20,000 nucleotides of DNA from the IMG/VR virus record IMGVR_UViG_3300025168_000060; one strand, 5' to 3'. The notes beneath the pieces are model-generated. The model was not told the origin of the DNA. It did not search any database and was given only the letters and a program-made list of their open reading frames with translations. The DNA comes from an uncultured virus (IMG/VR IMGVR_UViG_3300025168_000060) (taxonomy: Duplodnaviria; Heunggongvirae; Uroviricota; Caudoviricetes). The translations under genes were made by a program, and so were the position numbers. The number at the start of each line of letters is the position of its first letter. Within the stretch, counting starts at the first letter, position 1. Positions 2,153-20,000 of this stretch are shown piece by piece.

Positions 2153-2834
2153 TGATTACCCAGACCACTTGTATTATAACAATACATACTTTTTTGGTCC
2201 TTATTTACATCATGGTAGAGTTGACCCTAAATTTATTAAAGACTTATTAGCCATAGGTGAGAAATCACAGGATATGGTTGATATGAAAAAGAACTTAGCA
2301 GGTGATTTAAAAGGTGAGTGGAAGTTTAGTGAAGAAGACCAAAGATGGTTTTGTAAACACATGAGATTAAACTTTGAACATTATGTGAAACAACGTGCCA
2401 GTTGGCATGCTGATTCAGAATTAGAAAAAAGAGGATATATTATAGATAACGTATGGATTAATTATCAACATCCAGGTGATTATCAACCAGAGCATATACA
2501 TGCAGGTGATTTTAGTTGGGTTATTTATTTACAGAATCCACCAGGACTAGAAGAAGAAAGAGATAACCACGATACACGAGGTCCTGCACCAGGTACAATT
2601 ACCTTCTCTTATGGTGAGGGTGTTGGTATGTCAATTGAAAACTATGCTGTCATCAATCAAAACTTTGCCAATAAAGTAGGTGACTTCTTTATATTTCCGG
2701 CACAATTAAGGCATTCTGTACCACAATTTAAGAGTGAGGGTGTGAGAATATCTATAAGTGGGAATGGTAGTTTCCAAGAAAAACATAGTCCATATAATGA
2801 TTACTTTTATGGAGAACAAAGAATAAACAATTAA
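2145..2834 (+). CDS. Putative 2OG-Fe(II) oxygenase (TIGR02466-like)
   Basis: VWINYQ..YQPEHIH..FSWVIYL..FFIFPAQLRHSV..RISISGN. SD GGAGG at 2131-2135 favours the ATG at 2145. Confidence 0.8.
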   Translation: MSNDYPDHLYYNNTYFFGPYLHHGRVDPKFIKDLLAIGEKSQDMVDMKKNLAGDLKGEWKFSEEDQRWFCKHMRLNFEHYVKQRASWHADSELEKRGYIIDNVWINYQHPGDYQPEHIHAGDFSWVIYLQNPPGLEEERDNHDTRGPAPGTITFSYGEGVGMSIENYAVINQNFANKVGDFFIFPAQLRHSVPQFKSEGVRISISGNGSFQEKHSPYNDYFYGEQRINN

Positions 2835-6273: not shown

Positions 6274-7530
6274 ATGGAAAAGAAAATAGATCCGCTACTA
6301 GAAGAGCAATGGGAGGTTTTTCAAAAAGAAAACCCAAGTGCGACATATCGTCACGTTGATGAGAATGAACTGGTAGATAGACTAACAAAAGAATTAACTT
6401 ATGCTTCTAATATGTCAGTAGAAGAATACACACTATATCAAAAATGGTGTGAAGTAAAAAACAAATATCCTGCACAAAAAGTAAATACTTTATTTGGTGA
6501 AGAAAGTCAATTAGTTGACCAGTCAAAAGATAAGTTATTAGTACATGTGAAAAACAATATATGGTCACCTAAAGACCCTATGGACTTTGAAAAGTTAGAA
6601 CCAGAGTTAATCTATACAAAAGACATACCCAATGGGTCACAATTGTGGAATGCAATTCGTACATTTGCTTCTACAATGAAAAACAATAACAACATAGGTC
6701 GTAACCTTAACTTTATTGTAAGAGATAAACCAACAAAGAAATACTTAGGTGTTATTTGTATCTCATCAGACTTTTTAGATTTAACACCAAGAGACAATTA
6801 CATAGGTTGGGATAGAGAACGTAAAACGAAGAAGATGATTAATCATACGGCAATAGGTAGTACGATTGTGCCACTACAACCACTAGGGTTTAATTATACA
6901 GGTGGTAAGTTATTGGCGTTATTATGTTTATCTGATAAAGTACAAGAAATATGGAAAAGAGAATATGGTGACACGATGGTAGGTGTAACAACAACAAGTC
7001 TATATGGTAGTTTTAGTCAGTATCAAAATCTTAAATACTGGAAGAAAAGAGGTCATAGTTCAGGTAGTGTATCTTATGAAGCAACAAAACCTACAATTTC
7101 TATGATACGAGATTGGTTAAAAGAAAATCATACAAGAAAATACTTTGAATGGTATGGTGCAACAAAACCTACAGGCCAGCCTTATAAGAGAGACCACAGA
7201 AATAGGTCACATACATTTGCCTACAGTAAGTTAGGCATACCAAGAGAGATTACAAAGTCTGCTCATAGTCGTGGTATCTATTTTAGTACACTATATGATA
7301 ACACTTGCGAATTTTTAAAAGAAGAAATAACGGAAGATAAGTTAAAAAAATCATTTGATAGTAGTATTGAAGGACTTGTAAATGTATGGAAAAACAAGTA
7401 TGCTAGTAAGCGTATTAAATCATTGATTAACCAGTCTAGGACGAACATGGAGACACTTTATTATGATGACTTGATACATCTAACTTGGGAAGAAACAAAG
7501 AATAAGTATCTAAAACAGGTAGGAAGATGA
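6274..7530 (+). CDS. DUF4338 / Druantia DruA-like protein (predicted GNAT-like fold), paralog 1
   Basis: GRNLNFIVRD..YLGVICISS..PRDNYIGW..IVPLQPLGFNYTGGKLLALL..TTTSLYG..SQY. Confidence 0.7.
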   Translation: MEKKIDPLLEEQWEVFQKENPSATYRHVDENELVDRLTKELTYASNMSVEEYTLYQKWCEVKNKYPAQKVNTLFGEESQLVDQSKDKLLVHVKNNIWSPKDPMDFEKLEPELIYTKDIPNGSQLWNAIRTFASTMKNNNNIGRNLNFIVRDKPTKKYLGVICISSDFLDLTPRDNYIGWDRERKTKKMINHTAIGSTIVPLQPLGFNYTGGKLLALLCLSDKVQEIWKREYGDTMVGVTTTSLYGSFSQYQNLKYWKKRGHSSGSVSYEATKPTISMIRDWLKENHTRKYFEWYGATKPTGQPYKRDHRNRSHTFAYSKLGIPREITKSAHSRGIYFSTLYDNTCEFLKEEITEDKLKKSFDSSIEGLVNVWKNKYASKRIKSLINQSRTNMETLYYDDLIHLTWEETKNKYLKQVGR

Positions 7531-10108: not shown

Positions 10109-11269
10109 ATGAAATTAAATGATAAACAAAAACAATTTGTAGAGACTGCTTACAAAGAACTTGGTACTGATACAGTAACAAGAAAGCAAGTCCAAGAAAT
10201 TGAGACTAAATTTAATCTAACTGGTAACAGTTGGTTAGTTAATTCAGGAGACTACAAAGTGGGTCGTGGTGTATATAAATTACCTGTTAACGGTATGGTT
10301 AATCCATCTAAGAATGTTAAACAGAAATTATCACCTGTACAACCACAAGAAAAGGTTACACTTAAAACTACTGAACGTGTTGCTGATAATCTAGTGCCTT
10401 CTAAAGAGGCAACTTTTGTATCTTTTGGTAACTACAAAGATATTAAGAATATTGTTAAATCTGGTATCTTTTATCCTACTTTCATTACTGGTTTATCTGG
10501 TAATGGTAAGACACTTAACATAATTCAAAGTTGTGCTGAGTTAAAACGTGAATTAATTAGAGTTAACATAACTGTTGAAACGGACGAAGATGATTTACTT
10601 GGTGGTTTCAGATTAGTTGACGGTGCTACAGTATGGCATGACGGTCCTGTTGTTGACGCTATGAAACGTGGCGCTGTTCTTTTACTTGATGAGATTGACT
10701 TAGCAAGTAATAAGATTATGTGTTTACAACCTATCTTAGAAGGTAACGGTGTGTTCCTTAAAAAGATTGGTAAATTTGTAGAACCACAATCTGGTTTTAA
10801 TGTAATCGCTACTGCCAATACAAAAGGTAAAGGTAGTGATGACGGAAGATTTATTGGTACTAACATACTCAATGAAGCATTCCTTGAAAGATTTCCTGTT
10901 ACTTTTGAGCAACAGTATCCTCCTATCAAGGTAGAACAAAAAATACTTGATAACGTTATGGATGCCTATAACTTAAAAGATGACAAGTTTACAGAAAACC
11001 TAGTTAAATGGGCTGATGTAATTCGTAAGACTTTCTATGATGGTGGTGTTGATGAGATTATCGCTACTCGTAGATTAGTACATATCATTAATGCTTATGC
11101 TATCTTTAAGAACAAACTAAAATCTGTTCAAGTGTGTGTAAACAGATTTGATGATGATACTAAAAACAGTTTCCTTGATTTGTATTCCAAAGTTGACGCA
11201 GGCGTTAATATGGAAGACCTATCAGGAAATGTCAATGATGATGAGACAGTAGAGGATAGTAATATCTAA
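10109..11269 (+). CDS. cobS: CobS-like MoxR-type AAA+ ATPase
   Basis: Walker A GLSGNGKT, TDEDDLLGG, Walker B LLLDEID, ATANTKGKG, NEAFLERF, TRRLVHI. Confidence 0.9.
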   Translation: MKLNDKQKQFVETAYKELGTDTVTRKQVQEIETKFNLTGNSWLVNSGDYKVGRGVYKLPVNGMVNPSKNVKQKLSPVQPQEKVTLKTTERVADNLVPSKEATFVSFGNYKDIKNIVKSGIFYPTFITGLSGNGKTLNIIQSCAELKRELIRVNITVETDEDDLLGGFRLVDGATVWHDGPVVDAMKRGAVLLLDEIDLASNKIMCLQPILEGNGVFLKKIGKFVEPQSGFNVIATANTKGKGSDDGRFIGTNILNEAFLERFPVTFEQQYPPIKVEQKILDNVMDAYNLKDDKFTENLVKWADVIRKTFYDGGVDEIIATRRLVHIINAYAIFKNKLKSVQVCVNRFDDDTKNSFLDLYSKVDAGVNMEDLSGNVNDDETVEDSNI

Positions 11270-11288
11270 TATGAAATTCATTCATAAT

Positions 11289-11338
11289 GTAGACCTCGTA
11301 GGTGGCGGAACTCATAATCCCGCCACCGCTAAATCTAC
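11289..11338 (+). other. GC-rich stem-loop immediately 5' of the tRNA-like gene
   Basis: GGTGGCGG(11301-11308) pairs with CCGCCACC(11320-11327). Outer helix GTAGA/TCTAC. No clean U-tract. Confidence 0.65.
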
Positions 11339-11343
11339 TTTGA

Positions 11344-11417
11344 GCGGGTTAAGCATAAAAGTAATGTGTGTTAATTCCATTAACAAGAACTTCGGGCAGT
11401 ACGAAGGATCCGCTCCA
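11344..11417 (+). tRNA. Non-canonical tRNA-Gly (anticodon UCC) with encoded CCA
   Basis: Acceptor stem GCGGGTT/GATCCGC plus T73 and CCA. D stem GCAT/ATGT. Anticodon stem TGTTA/TAACA with loop ATTCCAT. T stem CTTCG/CGAAG with atypical loop GGCAGTA. Length 74 nt. Confidence 0.8.
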
Positions 11418-11433
11418 ACTAACTAATAAAGAT

Positions 11434-11640
11434 ATGACAATAACAGTAATAGTAAAAAATAACAACGTAGAAAAAGCTATTAGAACCTTAAAGAAAAAGG
11501 TCCTAAAAGAAGGTCTCTTAAAAGAAATAAAACAAAGGCAATATTACGAAAAGCCTACGTTAAAGAGACAAAGAAGACATAAAGAAAATCTAAAACGTGT
11601 TGCTAAATTAAATAAGCAACGAGAACGTGAAGGATTTTAA
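11434..11640 (+). CDS. rpsU: 30S ribosomal protein bS21 homolog
   Basis: MTITVIVKNNNVEKAIRTLKKK..EGLLKEIKQRQYYEKPTLKR. 68 aa, basic. The start is taken as ATG 11434 because the upstream extension overlaps the tRNA. Confidence 0.92.
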   Translation: MTITVIVKNNNVEKAIRTLKKKVLKEGLLKEIKQRQYYEKPTLKRQRRHKENLKRVAKLNKQREREGF

Positions 11641-11696
11641 AAGAATTTCTGTTGATGACACGGCGGAATAAACACCATAAACTAAAGGAGTATATT

Positions 11697-18678: not shown

Positions 18679-19151
18679 TATCTAATCCAAGTTTAAGAAA
18701 AGCAAGAACTAACGGCATGTCATATGAAAAGAAATTTGAATTGTTTTGTAATTCAAAAGGTATTGGTAGTGTATATCACACTAGATGGTCAAGGAGTGGT
18801 ACAGGTTCTTTTGATGATGATAACAAGATATTAGTAAAAGACTTTCCATATGAAAGTATCTACCCAGGTCGTATATGTAAAACAGAATTTGTGTTAATAC
18901 TCAACGATAGAAGAATAAGAATAGAGTTTAAATCTCAGGATATGCCAGGTTCAACTGATGAAAAAATACCATATCTTTTAGAAAATGTAAGACATAGTTT
19001 TCCTGAAGATGAAGTAATACTTGGTATTATAGGACAAGGATGGCGACCAGGTATAAAAGAATATGTAAATAAACAAAAATTTAAGAATAAAAAAGTTTTA
19101 ATTTTTTATGATTATGATAAACTAGAGGAATATGTGAGTACAATTGTATGA
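18675..19151 (+). CDS. PD-(D/E)XK nuclease superfamily protein
   Basis: ARTNGMSYE..TEFVL..RIEFKSQ..PGSTDEKIPY..IIGQGW. TTG start coupled to the gp43 stop. Alternative ATG at 18717. Confidence 0.7.
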   Translation: MISNPSLRKARTNGMSYEKKFELFCNSKGIGSVYHTRWSRSGTGSFDDDNKILVKDFPYESIYPGRICKTEFVLILNDRRIRIEFKSQDMPGSTDEKIPYLLENVRHSFPEDEVILGIIGQGWRPGIKEYVNKQKFKNKKVLIFYDYDKLEEYVSTIV

Positions 19152-20000
19152 TATTAAATGACCAAGACAGTACCTGGGCAATGAATTACTTTATTGAATA
19201 CTTTGGCCAATTTGAAAGAATTGACCAGTATCTTAAAGAACAAAAACTAGAGCAAGTTAAATCTTTTCCATTTCAGTTACCTGGTATGGCAGATGAAGAT
19301 GATTTCTTTTCTACATTTGATATACACCCACATGATATGAAATTTAGTGTGACGATACCTAATGGTCAGATATTTGACCGTATGTTAAACAAGACATCTA
19401 GTCATACAAACATGTCATCTATACCTGGTAAGTCAATACGTTTATTAGTAACAGAAACAACGACCAATACTATTGTAGGTTTTATAAGACTAGGTAGTCC
19501 AGTTATTAACAGTAAGCCACGAAATGATTTTTTAGGCAGACCACTGGCAACAACAGACTTAAAAGAAATGGGTCGTTTCAATGCGAGTGCCATTATGGGT
19601 TTTGTTATAGTACCTACACAACCTTTTGGTTATAACTATCTAGGTGGCAAACTATTAGCCGCCATATGTTGTAGTCATCATGTCCGTAATTTACTAAATA
19701 AAAAGTACGATACAAATATATGTTTGTTTGAAACAACTAGTTTATATGGTAGTAGTAAGTCCTCAAGTCAATATGATGGCATGAAACCGTATCTGAGATT
19801 TAAAGGATTAACAGATAGTAATTTTTTACCACTATTACATGGTGACGCCTTTAAACAAATGAACAAATGGTTTACAGAAAGAAATGAAAACACACCTTTA
19901 GTTGACCCAGAAGCAAGTAGTAGAAAACTTAAAACTCAACAAAAGATGGTATCTGTTATAAAGGAATCATTAAAGAAACACAATTCAAACTTATATGAAA
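19148..20000 (+). CDS. DUF4338 / DruA-like protein, paralog 2 (3'-truncated by the window; absent from the ORF track)
   Basis: Manual translation is open from ATG 19148 (ATGA overlap) to the window end: PGKSIRLLV..VGFIRLGSP..PRNDFLG..IVPTQPFGYNYLGGKLLAAICCS..ETTSLYG..SQYDG. Confidence 0.85.
   Translation, partial: MILNDQDSTWAMNYFIEYFGQFERIDQYLKEQKLEQVKSFPFQLPGMADEDDFFSTFDIHPHDMKFSVTIPNGQIFDRMLNKTSSHTNMSSIPGKSIRLLVTETTTNTIVGFIRLGSPVINSKPRNDFLGRPLATTDLKEMGRFNASAIMGFVIVPTQPFGYNYLGGKLLAAICCSHHVRNLLNKKYDTNICLFETTSLYGSSKSSSQYDGMKPYLRFKGLTDSNFLPLLHGDAFKQMNKWFTERNENTPLVDPEASSRKLKTQQKMVSVIKESLKKHNSNLYE

What the first reader, a model, noticed from the sequence alone, without database searches (positions are those of the whole stretch)
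11344..11417. Elbow-less tRNA-Gly(UCC): candidate non-proteinogenic glycyl-donor tRNA
Seen: all four stems pair and the spacing is canonical (74 nt, encoded CCA). The bacterial GlyRS identity set is intact: G1-C72, C2-G71, G3-C70, U73, C35/C36. Near-universal nucleotides are changed: A8 instead of U8, D loop AAAAGUA without the GG pair, T loop GGCAGUA instead of UUCRANY (no U54, U55, A58), and A32/U38. T-stem pairs 50-64 and 51-63 are both U-A. Known: T-stem pairs 49-65, 50-64 and 51-63 tune EF-Tu affinity. Staphylococcal non-proteinogenic tRNA-Gly used by Fem transferases lose the GG/TPsiC motifs and bind EF-Tu weakly. Inference: intact stems with rewritten loops suggest selection rather than decay, giving an RNA that host GlyRS charges but that is diverted from the ribosome. 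Standard tRNA scanners may miss it or call it a pseudogene. By eye, Gly codons here are mostly GGT, so GGA codon supplementation is not an obvious need.
Basis: partly seen in the sequence, partly recalled or inferred. Interest (0 to 1): 0.9.

Follow-up and report, generated by a model that had tools for sequence, protein, structure and literature searches.

The report
Phage glycine tRNA with rewired elbow
This is a real glycine tRNA gene of a SAR11-type marine phage whose corner (elbow) is rebuilt rather than lost, one of a widespread phage-only class of tRNAs that annotation often misses, so its odd loops alone do not show a job outside protein synthesis.

Summary
The described cloverleaf is at 11344-11417 (+) and every listed nucleotide checks out. 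It is a gene under selection. Eighteen distinct relatives keep 95.5% of stem cells paired, against 36-52% in slid controls, and 12 of 21 pairs change on both sides. ARAGORN and Rfam's tRNA model miss the window copy.

"Elbow-less" is wrong. G19 and C56 stay, and G18/U55 are swapped together for A18/G55. The same D loop (AAAAGUA) and T loop (NGCRNUA) occur in phage tRNAs for His, Thr, Gln, Asp, Lys and Ile. In one complete 176-kb phage, G55-type tRNAs fill the otherwise empty Gly and Asp slots of a 23-tRNA set. The class is near-absent from cellular genomes. So the loops mark a phage tRNA class, not a glycine-specific adaptation.

Some glycine-specific oddities remain:
- The T stem is predicted to bind EF-Tu weakly: -9.1 kcal/mol, against -10.8 for bacterial tRNA-Gly(UCC).
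- The wobble base varies freely, including the almost unknown ACC anticodon.
- A few relatives have six-base anticodon loops.

No tRNA-dependent transferase was found in a related complete phage.

Best reading: a translational phage tRNA-Gly (about 0.6). The glycyl-donor idea stays open (about 0.15). The scan noted a similar tRNA before on other DNA (e1-5882213).

The parts
11344..11417 (+). tRNA-Gly(UCC) gene, 74 nt, with encoded CCA (11415-11417) and discriminator U (11414)
   Evidence: Sequence; cloverleaf MFE; 75.5 bits against my class model R1; covariation in 18 and 96 relatives
11344..11350 (+). Acceptor stem, 5' strand. It pairs with 11407-11413 and starts with G1-C72, C2-G71, G3-C70.
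   Evidence: Pairs 1-4 are invariant in 18 relatives, but the search pattern fixed them. Pairs 6 and 7 change on both sides.
11353..11367 (+). D arm: 4-bp stem and 7-nt loop AAAAGUA (A18, G19; no G18)
   Evidence: With only the T loop constrained, 68 of 68 tRNA-like hits have AAAAG in the D loop.
11369..11385 (+). Anticodon arm: 5-bp stem, loop AUUCCAU, anticodon UCC at 11376-11378, A32/U38 able to pair
   Evidence: All 5 stem pairs change on both sides among relatives. Position 34 is U, A or G among 18 relatives.
11390..11406 (+). T arm: stem C49-G65, U50-A64, U51-A63, C52-G62, G53-C61; loop GGCAGUA (G54, G55, C56, A57, G58)
   Evidence: 4 of 5 stem pairs change on both sides. G55-C56 is found in 18 of 18 relatives from a scan that left the T loop free.
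11279..11327 (+). Upstream conserved 22-nt motif (11279-11300) followed by a GC-rich hairpin (11301-11327) whose stem covaries. Function unknown; possibly a promoter/stem-loop cassette or the cobS terminator.
   Evidence: Alignment with HTVC008M. Present in L001-L012, and in L015/L016 without any tRNA. Occurs once in the window. The promoter-like match is weak, 9 of 12.
10109..11269 (+). CobS-like AAA_5 ATPase gene (context)
   Evidence: Pfam PF07728, E 4.9e-17; 'CobS' in HTVC008M
11434..11640 (+). Phage ribosomal protein S21 gene (context), starting 16 nt after the CCA
   Evidence: Pfam PF01165, E 4.2e-16

Best explanation
Positions 11344-11417 are a genuine tRNA-Gly(UCC) gene of a T4-like pelagimyophage, a relative of Pelagibacter phages HTVC008M and Mosig. 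It belongs to a phage-restricted class of tRNAs with a rebuilt elbow. The G18/U55 contact is replaced by A18/G55, the 54/58 pair takes other combinations, and the stacking pair G19-C56 is kept. Shown here: the gene is conserved with compensatory changes, the loops are a class feature across several amino-acid identities, and such tRNAs sit inside ordinary phage tRNA arrays. Inferred: it is cut out of an early transcript by RNase P and 3' nucleases, charged by the host's bacterial-type GlyRS through G1-C72, C2-G71, G3-C70, U73, C35 and C36, and used on the ribosome for glycine codons. It would read GGA/GGG, or all four GGN if U34 stays unmodified. Why the elbow is rebuilt is not known. G55 and a non-U54 rule out the usual pseudouridine-55 and m5U54 modifications and could blunt T-loop-directed enzymes.
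For: (1) Real and selected. Among 18 distinct relatives, 95.5% of stem cells pair, against 36-52% when partners are slid. 12 of 21 pairs change on both sides. The covariation score is 0.631 against at most 0.108 in slid controls, and 0 of 500 shuffles reach it. Among 96 class members, 91.7% pair against at most 46.5%, and the score is 0.757 against at most 0.122.
(2) The homologous HTVC008M copy is called tRNA-Gly by ARAGORN and scores 49.5 bits against RF00005, whose gathering score is 29.
(3) Class feature. By my fixed-position parse, its 90 distinct cloverleaves comprise 67 Gly and 23 others: His 7, Thr 7, Gln 6, Lys 1, Asp 1, Ile 1.
(4) Coupled tertiary change. In the tRNA arrays of two phages, 7 of 7 tRNAs with G55 have A-G in the D loop and 25 of 25 parsed tRNAs with U55 have G-G. 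In the reciprocal scan, 68 of 68 tRNA-like hits with GGCAGUA have AAAAG. In the forward scan, 18 of 18 distinct hits with ANAAGUA have G55-C56.
(5) Translational setting. The complete 176-kb phage G002 has 23 ARAGORN tRNAs for 17 amino acids, none for Gly or Asp. My model finds one G55-type Gly(UCC) and one G55-type Asp(GUC) in the same arrays. G003 pairs a G55-type Gly(GCC) with a canonical-looped Gly(UCC).
(6) T stems of non-Gly class members match the EF-Tu values of their amino-acid classes: His -10.56 vs -10.7, Thr(GGU) -9.75 vs -10.1, Ile -9.4 vs -9.4.
(7) Mosig's copy has a textbook TTGACA-17-TATATT promoter ending 8 nt before the tRNA.
(8) U33, C35, C36 and A37 are invariant in the 18 relatives.
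Against: Glycine members look unlike normal elongators in four ways.
(a) Calculated EF-Tu affinity is low. The window is -9.1 kcal/mol and 72 class Gly tRNAs average -9.22 (sd 0.58). The comparisons are -10.8/-11.0 for bacterial tRNA-Gly, -10.37 (n=44) for canonical-looped phage tRNA-Gly found with a matched scan, and -9.5 for the staphylococcal non-proteogenic tRNA. Part of this is AT-richness: at flank GC below 0.35 the gap shrinks to -9.18 (n=61) vs -9.83 (n=12).
(b) Position 34 varies freely and does not track codon use. The window has UCC while GGA is 13.7% and GGT 68.5% of Gly codons. A relative with a 94%-identical S21 has ACC with nearly the same usage.
(c) 6 of 91 distinct Gly members have a 6-nt anticodon loop.
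(d) Pelagimyophages carry few or no other tRNAs. My class model finds only this element in G000 and HTVC008M. In G001, ARAGORN also calls a tRNA-Thr and a 94-nt tRNA-Arg.
No evidence of expression, processing, charging or decoding was obtained. The RNA-library contigs are too thin to count.
Confidence: 0.6

Rival explanations
1. One reading: host GlyRS charges the RNA, but it binds EF-Tu poorly and is kept off the ribosome. It would then deliver glycine to a non-ribosomal acceptor through a Fem-like or other tRNA-dependent transferase of the phage or the host.
For: The calculated T-stem affinity of -9.1 kcal/mol is weaker than the staphylococcal non-proteogenic tRNA at -9.5, and 1.7 kcal/mol below the tRNA-Gly(UCC) mean. 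The weakness is specific to Gly within the class. G55 matches the TGC/TGT T loops of S. aureus NP1-3. The wobble base varies freely, including ACC in 25 of 73 class Gly tRNAs against 0 of 44 canonical-looped phage tRNA-Gly. 6 of 91 have 6-nt anticodon loops. It is the only strong match to the class model in G000 and HTVC008M.
Against: The loops cited as evidence are shared by His, Thr, Gln, Asp, Lys and Ile tRNAs, and G55 with A18 also occurs in Ala and Arg tRNAs. G19-C56 is kept. The rewired Gly tRNA is the only tRNA-Gly in a phage with 23 other tRNAs. No known tRNA-dependent transferase family is found in 175 ORFs of a complete relative or in the window's 22 ORFs. From my own knowledge, not tested here: Gram-negative SAR11 has no interpeptide bridges. 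The EF-Tu figure comes from a three-base-pair model made on canonical tRNAs and is partly explained by AT-richness.
Confidence: 0.15
2. Anti-defence RNA. The rebuilt elbow makes the tRNA resistant to a host enzyme that recognises the canonical T loop or elbow, or makes it a decoy for such an enzyme. Candidates are a tRNA nuclease or a toxin acting on glycyl-tRNA. Its main role would then be protection rather than codon supply.
For: The class is essentially confined to phage DNA. There are at least 120 viral-contig hits (capped), against 15 hits in 185,579 species genomes, and all 15 record titles begin 'MAG'. The tmRNA genes of HTVC008M and a related phage also carry a G55-type T loop. This suggests pressure on the T loop itself. 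Published cases of phage tRNAs that counter tRNA-cutting defences are recalled, not read here.
Against: No such nuclease or toxin is identified for SAR11. Recalled from my own knowledge, not read here: known phage counter-defence tRNAs differ in the anticodon loop, not the elbow. This reading explains the class but not the glycine-specific weak T stem. It was not tested here.
Confidence: 0.15
3. A cis-acting tRNA-like punctuation or leader element of the S21 mRNA. It would act as an RNase P cut site or a regulator rather than as a free tRNA.
For: It lies 16 nt upstream of the S21 start in the window. An S21-like ORF follows within 60 nt in 10 of 18 distinct relatives.
Against: 8 of 18 distinct relatives have no S21-like ORF after the tRNA, and where an ORF was found it is unlike S21. 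Mosig has the tRNA between Hsp20 and gp45 with its own promoter. L015/L016 keep S21 and the upstream motif without the tRNA. Full GlyRS identity and an encoded CCA are conserved.
Confidence: 0.03
4. Not an RNA gene at all: either a decaying tRNA pseudogene or chance cloverleaf, or part of the 51-codon ORF at 11271-11426.
For: The single-sequence fold is only modestly better than shuffles, with 7 of 200 as good. An ATG-started ORF covers the element. One frame is stop-free across it in 12 of 18 relatives. Mosig's copy is annotated as a 31-aa hypothetical protein.
Against: There is massive compensatory change in the stems with conserved loops. The frame is interrupted in 6 of 18 relatives. HTVC008M lacks the ATG and has no gene annotated there. 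The ORF has no Pfam family.
Confidence: 0.02

Closest known systems
T4-type phage-encoded elongator tRNA-Gly. Canonical-looped versions are abundant in viral contigs.
   Same: Same length (74 nt), same acceptor end (GCG...CGC-U-CCA), same 4-bp GYAU D stem, 7-nt D loop and 4-nt variable loop. Carried by T4-like myophages.
   Different: The D loop is AAAAGUA instead of AAUGGUA. The T loop is NGCRNUA instead of UUCRANN. 51-63 is A-U or U-A instead of G-C: G-C occurs in 1 of 73 class Gly tRNAs against 32 of 44 canonical ones. ACC anticodons occur in 25 of 73 against 0 of 44.
Staphylococcal non-proteogenic tRNA-Gly (NP1-NP3 of S. aureus; Ia/Ib of S. epidermidis)
   Same: Glycine identity, G55 in place of U55 so no pseudouridine-55, loss of G18, and a T stem calculated to bind EF-Tu weakly (PMC7826273 and PMC3239215).
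   Different: G19 is kept here, whereas the paper places a dihydrouridine at position 19 in the staphylococcal tRNAs. The loops here are shared with tRNAs of other amino acids. No Fem transferase is found in the phage. From my own knowledge, the host is Gram-negative. Wobble base A or G occurs here, whereas NP1-3 are all UCC.
Non-canonical-elbow tRNAs of organelles, and tRNA-Pyl
   Same: Functional tRNAs that lack the G18G19/T-Psi-C consensus (recalled from my own knowledge, not tested here).
   Different: Recalled from my own knowledge: those usually shorten or lose loops. Here loop lengths are canonical and a specific coupled A18/G55 substitution is kept across identities, in phages only.

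Membership tests
Bacterial-type elongator tRNA-Gly | Cloverleaf with 7/4/5/5-bp stems, 7-nt anticodon loop with U33, 73-nt body plus CCA | tested here: met
   covariation
Bacterial-type elongator tRNA-Gly | GlyRS identity set G1-C72, C2-G71, G3-C70, U73, C35, C36.
   Present in the window. Invariant in 18 relatives, although pairs 1-3 and the 3' end were fixed by the search pattern. Most Gly members of the 96-sequence set, found without fixing the acceptor, also start with GCG.
Bacterial-type elongator tRNA-Gly | Consensus tertiary nucleotides U8, G18, G19, U54, U55, C56, A58 | tested here: not met
   The window has A8, A18, G54, G55 and G58. Only G19 and C56 are kept.
Bacterial-type elongator tRNA-Gly | Reaches the Rfam RF00005 gathering score (29 bits) or is called by ARAGORN | tested here: not met
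   No hit for the window copy. The HTVC008M homolog does pass, at 49.5 bits and with an ARAGORN call.
Bacterial-type elongator tRNA-Gly | Aminoacylated with glycine and decodes GGN on the ribosome | not testable with these tools
   Needs biochemistry
Staphylococcal-type non-proteogenic tRNA-Gly | T loop lacks U55 (TGC/TGT instead of TTC) | tested here: met
   G55-C56 in the window and in 18 of 18 relatives. Feature taken from PMC7826273.
Staphylococcal-type non-proteogenic tRNA-Gly | Weak EF-Tu pairs at 49-65, 50-64, 51-63 (calculated about -9.5 kcal/mol, against a -10.8 mean) | tested here: met
   The window is -9.1 by the additive model of PMC3239215. This is a calculation only.
Staphylococcal-type non-proteogenic tRNA-Gly | A tRNA-dependent glycyl transferase (Fem family) is present in the same system | tested here: not met
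   No such Pfam family is found in the window's 22 ORFs or in 175 ORFs of the 99%-complete relative G001. 93 of the 175 had no family. The host genome was not searched.
Staphylococcal-type non-proteogenic tRNA-Gly | The odd loops are restricted to the special glycine isoacceptors | tested here: not met
   The same loops occur in His, Thr, Gln, Asp, Lys and Ile tRNAs, and G55 with A18 also occurs in Ala and Arg tRNAs.
Staphylococcal-type non-proteogenic tRNA-Gly | No binding to EF-Tu or to programmed ribosomes | not testable with these tools
   Needs biochemistry
Phage rewired-elbow tRNA class (defined here) | A18-G19 in a D loop of canonical length, together with G55-C56 in a 7-nt T loop and G53-C61 | tested here: met
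   Window; 75.5 bits against model R1; coupling shown
Phage rewired-elbow tRNA class (defined here) | Found in phage DNA and rare in cellular genomes | tested here: met
   At least 120 viral-contig stretches (capped), against 15 in one genome for each of 185,579 species, all with record titles beginning 'MAG'

The most novel reading that the evidence does not exclude
The solitary glycine members carried by pelagimyophages are charged by the host GlyRS but largely escape EF-Tu. They would then act outside ordinary decoding, as a glycyl donor or as a sink or decoy for enzymes that act on glycyl-tRNA. Separately, the A18/G55 elbow, which these phages' tmRNA genes appear to share in the T loop, would be a phage-wide device that makes their tRNA-shaped RNAs invisible to host enzymes that read the canonical T loop.
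Probability: 0.2. Interest if true: 0.85.

Novelty: new variant of a known kind. Interest (0 to 1): 0.62.

Why it matters
Published pelagimyophage genomes are listed as having no such tRNA. HTVC008M is given 0 tRNAs by tRNAscan-SE in Table 1 of PMC7029224. Mosig's copy is annotated as a 31-aa protein. Counts of phage tRNAs in marine viromes are therefore probably too low, and small 'hypothetical proteins' are being called over them.

The coupled G18/U55 to A18/G55 swap is a natural experiment on one of the most conserved contacts in biology, and it spans many tRNA identities. The glycine members add the ACC anticodon, which PMC6720975 describes as banished from nearly all organisms, and a T stem that the EF-Tu compensation rule flags as an outlier. 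Both features can be tested directly with transcripts.

My three literature searches, made in the held open-access and bioRxiv library only, found no description of this class. Subscription-journal work, including older phage tRNA sequencing, was not searchable.

Tried and rejected
- **Small-protein reading.** The ORF at 11271-11426 (P0001) was rejected on covariation, on stops inside the element in 6 of 18 relatives, and on the absence of an ATG or any annotation in HTVC008M.
- **S21 leader or punctuation.** Rejected because 8 of 18 distinct relatives lack an S21-like ORF downstream, and Mosig places the tRNA elsewhere.
- **Upstream hairpin as a tRNA-Met fragment.** The hairpin's loop resembles a Met anticodon loop. 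The loop is not conserved in relatives, so this is coincidence.
- **Metagenome scan with a free D loop.** It stopped at 120 rows and returned 103 distinct sequences, nearly all canonical-looped tRNA-Gly. It served only as a control, and it says nothing about intermediate forms.
- **RNA evidence.** 17 RNA-labelled runs hold part of the 801-base stretch, each less than half of its sampled words. Contigs of four runs cover pieces at depth 2-3. One contig ends at 11343, the base before the predicted 5' end. Another spans 11199-11397. This is too thin, DNA carry-over is not excluded, and it is not used as evidence either way.
- **Transferase search.** Pfam over the window and over G001 found none. 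The ORF calling was crude: ORFs of at least 70 aa, with ORFs crossing the 20-kb fetch boundaries lost.
- **Sigma-70 promoter scan of the window.** Only a 9-of-12 match overlaps the hairpin, so it is not convincing.
- **Earlier-findings look-up by sequence.** Nothing was found.
- **Not done.** Host (Pelagibacter) tRNA set and codon usage, because I held no handle for a host genome. tRNAscan-SE and R-scape, because they were not available.
Full report
**1. What is there.** The window is part of a 64,218-bp virus record. It carries the replication module of a T4-like phage: gp46/47-like nuclease, CobS-like ATPase, ribosomal protein S21, Hsp20, several 2OG-Fe(II) oxygenases, gp45, gp44, gp62, RegA and gp43. 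Its closest named relative is Pelagibacter phage HTVC008M, at 74.4% identity over 1.1 kb around the finding. Between the CobS-like gene (ends 11269) and S21 (starts 11434) lies the 74-nt element at 11344-11417. The sequence folds on its own into the cloverleaf: -18.6 kcal/mol, z -2.19, with 7 of 200 shuffles as good. ARAGORN finds no tRNA in the window. Rfam finds nothing at gathering score, no tRNA match at E<=10 on 11150-11650, and no RF00005 match in the whole record.

**2. It is a conserved RNA gene.**
- HTVC008M has an unannotated 150-nt gap at the same place. There ARAGORN calls a tRNA-Gly with anticodon ACC, and Rfam's tRNA model gives 49.5 bits against a gathering score of 29.
- The two copies share the acceptor end and both loops, but have entirely different, still complementary, anticodon and T stems.
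- An S21-protein scan of viral contigs gave 72 loci. I printed the upstream region for 29 loci plus the window, and L001-L012 carry the element.
- A pattern scan that fixed the acceptor ends and the D arm found 36 loci, all 74 nt long, with 18 distinct sequences.
- On these 18, 95.5% of stem cells are standard pairs, against 36-52% when partners are slid by 1-3 columns. 12 of 21 pairs change on both sides. The covariation score is 0.631 against at most 0.108, and 0 of 500 shuffles reach it.
- The pattern fixed acceptor pairs 1-4 and part of pair 5, and parts of the D stem. The anticodon and T stems were free, and they carry 9 of the 12 double changes.

The 51-codon ORF over the element is not the explanation. 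One frame is stop-free in 12 of 18 relatives but interrupted in 6. HTVC008M has no ATG there.

**3. The loops are a class feature, not a glycine feature.** My rough expectation by chance is about one.
- By a fixed-position parse, the 90 distinct cloverleaves are 67 Gly (UCC 44 plus 5 of 73 nt, ACC 17, GCC 1) and 23 others: His 7, Thr 7, Gln 6, Lys 1, Asp 1, Ile 1.
- Ninety-six 74-nt members, including the window, pair in 91.7% of cells against at most 46.5% when slid. 20 of 23 pairs change on both sides.
- The same scan over one genome for each of 185,579 prokaryote species gave 15 hits, all on records whose titles begin 'MAG'. The class is therefore essentially phage DNA.

**4. The elbow is rewired, not lost.** Compare the window with canonical-looped tRNA-Gly of the same length and D stem. 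The D loop changes from AAUGGUA to AAAAGUA, so G18 becomes A and G19 stays. The T loop changes from UUCRANN to NGCRNUA, so U55 becomes G and C56 stays.
- I built a covariance model (R1) from the 96 sequences and aligned every tRNA in the arrays of two phages to it.
- 7 of 7 tRNAs with G55 (Gly x2, Asp, Ala, His, Arg, Lys) have A-G in the D loop. 25 of 25 parsed tRNAs with U55 have G-G.
- Four long-arm tRNAs were mis-parsed and left out. Two weak matches have other loops.
- In the reciprocal scan, with the T loop GGCAGUA and the glycine 3' end fixed and the D loop free, 68 of 68 tRNA-like hits have AAAAG in the D loop. These came from 70 distinct sequences, 2 of which are not tRNA-like.
- In the forward scan, 18 of 18 had G55-C56.
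- The 54/58 positions take the combinations G/G, A/U, U/U, U/A and C/A.

I infer that A18 contacts G55 in place of G18-pseudouridine 55. The G19-C56 platform, which from general knowledge RNase P and the ribosome touch, would survive. No structure was computed.

**5. Setting in other phages.**
- Model R1 finds exactly one strong match in the window's record, in HTVC008M and in the 99%-complete relative G001.
- In the complete 176-kb phage G002, ARAGORN finds 23 tRNAs for 17 amino acids and none for Gly or Asp. R1 finds a G55-type Gly(UCC) and a G55-type Asp(GUC) in the same arrays. That set uses U34 tRNAs for the Ala, Val, Thr, Pro, Ser and Leu boxes, so Gly(UCC) fits it.
- G003 has a G55-type Gly(GCC) about 200 nt from a canonical-looped Gly(UCC).
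- Among 18 distinct relatives, an S21-like ORF follows in 10 and not in 8.
- Pelagibacter phage Mosig carries an ACC copy between Hsp20 and gp45. It is annotated as a 31-aa hypothetical protein and is preceded by TTGACA, 17 nt, then TATATT, ending 8 nt before the tRNA.
- Table 1 of PMC7029224 lists 0 tRNAs for HTVC008M by tRNAscan-SE (passages read). PMC8163748 mentions a tRNA only for another phage (passages read).

**6. What stays odd about the glycine members.** I used the additive model of Schrader and Uhlenbeck (PMC3239215; Tables 1, 2 and 4 read in passages). The base value of -10.1 kcal/mol was inferred from their Table 3 and checked against their staphylococcal value.

| tRNA set | Calculated EF-Tu affinity (kcal/mol) | Source |
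|---|---|---|
| Window T stem (C-G, U-A, U-A) | -9.1 | |
| Class Gly tRNAs, n=72 | -9.22 (sd 0.58); G51-C63 in 1 of 73 | |
| Bacterial tRNA-Gly means | -10.8 to -11.0 | |
| Staphylococcal non-proteogenic tRNA-Gly | -9.5 | |
| Canonical-looped tRNA-Gly, metagenome scan, n=93 | -10.67 | |
| Canonical-looped phage tRNA-Gly, matched scan, n=44 | -10.37; G51-C63 in 32 of 44 | |

- Non-Gly class members sit near their own class means: His -10.56 vs -10.7, Thr(GGU) -9.75 vs -10.1, Gln -9.0 to -9.45 vs -8.9/-9.1, Asp -10.5 vs -11.0, Ile -9.4 vs -9.4.
- AT-richness explains part of the gap. At flank GC below 0.35 the values are -9.18 (n=61) against -9.83 (n=12). At 0.35-0.45 they are -9.26 (n=9) against -10.5 (n=15).
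- ACC anticodons occur in 25 of 73 class Gly tRNAs, in 0 of 44 matched canonical ones, and in none that I saw among the 103. PMC6720975 (passages read) calls tRNA-Gly(ACC) 'banished from nearly all organisms'.
- The window has UCC, although GGT is 68.5% and GGA 13.7% of Gly codons. G001, whose S21 is 94% identical, has ACC with 69.4% and 15.4%.
- Positions 32 and 38 can pair in 80% of class members.
- 6 of 91 distinct Gly members have a six-base anticodon loop, in two acceptor-stem backgrounds.

These facts fit either four-way reading by unmodified U34/A34 in the strong GG box or relaxed decoding constraint. I cannot tell which.

**7. Partner enzymes.** No Fem, MurM, L/F-transferase, ATE, MprF or cyclodipeptide-synthase family appears in the window's 22 ORFs. 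None appears in 175 crude ORFs of G001 at E<=1e-5. Since 93 of the 175 have no family at all, the absence is weak evidence.

**8. Verdict.** Its distinctive loops, however, belong to a phage-wide rewired-elbow tRNA class that includes ordinary members of phage tRNA arrays.
- I put about 0.6 on a translational tRNA-Gly.
- About 0.15 on a glycyl carrier kept off the ribosome.
- About 0.15 on an anti-defence decoy.
- The remainder on minor readings.

I reached the class result before reading that note. I did not test its suggestion of a Mom-type enzyme.

Noticed in passing
L358:1453-1717 (G001:C1 about 117731-117995) and L351:1446-1757 (HTVC008M about 145103-145414): Two pelagimyophages encode an alphaproteobacterial-type permuted tmRNA. 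Rfam gives RF01849 at 74.7 and 83.8 bits and RF04321 at 98.4 and 90.6 bits. ARAGORN reads the tag as ANFNEYALAA in G001. Its tRNA-like part has a G55-type T loop (GGCAGUA or UGCAAUA), like the rewired tRNAs. None was seen in the window's 44%-complete record.
   Followed up: partly
window 11279-11327; also L001-L012, L015 and L016 upstream of S21: A 22-nt motif is conserved almost letter for letter right after the cobS stop. A GC-rich hairpin follows it, and its stem covaries while its loop does not. The pair is kept even in contigs that lack the tRNA. Its function is unknown; it may be a promoter/stem-loop cassette, a terminator or a processing site.
   Followed up: partly
L275, L285, L291, L301, L326, L636 (viral contigs): Six distinct rewired tRNA-Gly genes are 73 nt long and have a six-base anticodon loop (U-N-C-C-A-A, with N = U, A or C). 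They occur in two different acceptor-stem backgrounds, so this is not a one-off sequencing error.
   Followed up: partly
L381:2128-2203 and 2207-2278 (- strand; G002, next to the rewired tRNA-Gly): Two further weak matches to the tRNA model (23.8 and 25.8 bits) have no G in the D loop and T loops starting UGG or UGA. ARAGORN misses both. G002 lacks a called tRNA-Tyr, so one of them might fill that slot.
   Followed up: no
L394:16916-18148 and L394:19319-19981 (G001): A DUF6267 protein (E 1.2e-130) lies close to an AAA_33/Zeta-toxin-like kinase-fold protein. I wondered whether these form an RNA ligase/kinase-type tRNA repair pair as in T4. This was not examined.
   Followed up: no
window 6274-7530 and 19148-19999; L394:11595-12722: Two window ORFs and a G001 ORF match the Druantia DruA family (PF14236; E 3.1e-21, 7.9e-9 and 4.3e-9). 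These sit inside a phage replication module.
   Followed up: no
L397:4525-10945 (G001): The related phage carries CsgF- and CsgG-like curli secretion genes, a FecR-like gene and a CHASE2-adenylate/guanylate cyclase gene in a row.
   Followed up: no
L001:2036-2107: The HTVC008M tRNA also gives a sub-threshold match to Rfam's skipping-rope RNA (19.3 bits against a gathering score of 36.7). A 2026 preprint abstract seen in a search listing describes that RNA as a tRNA mimic.
   Followed up: no
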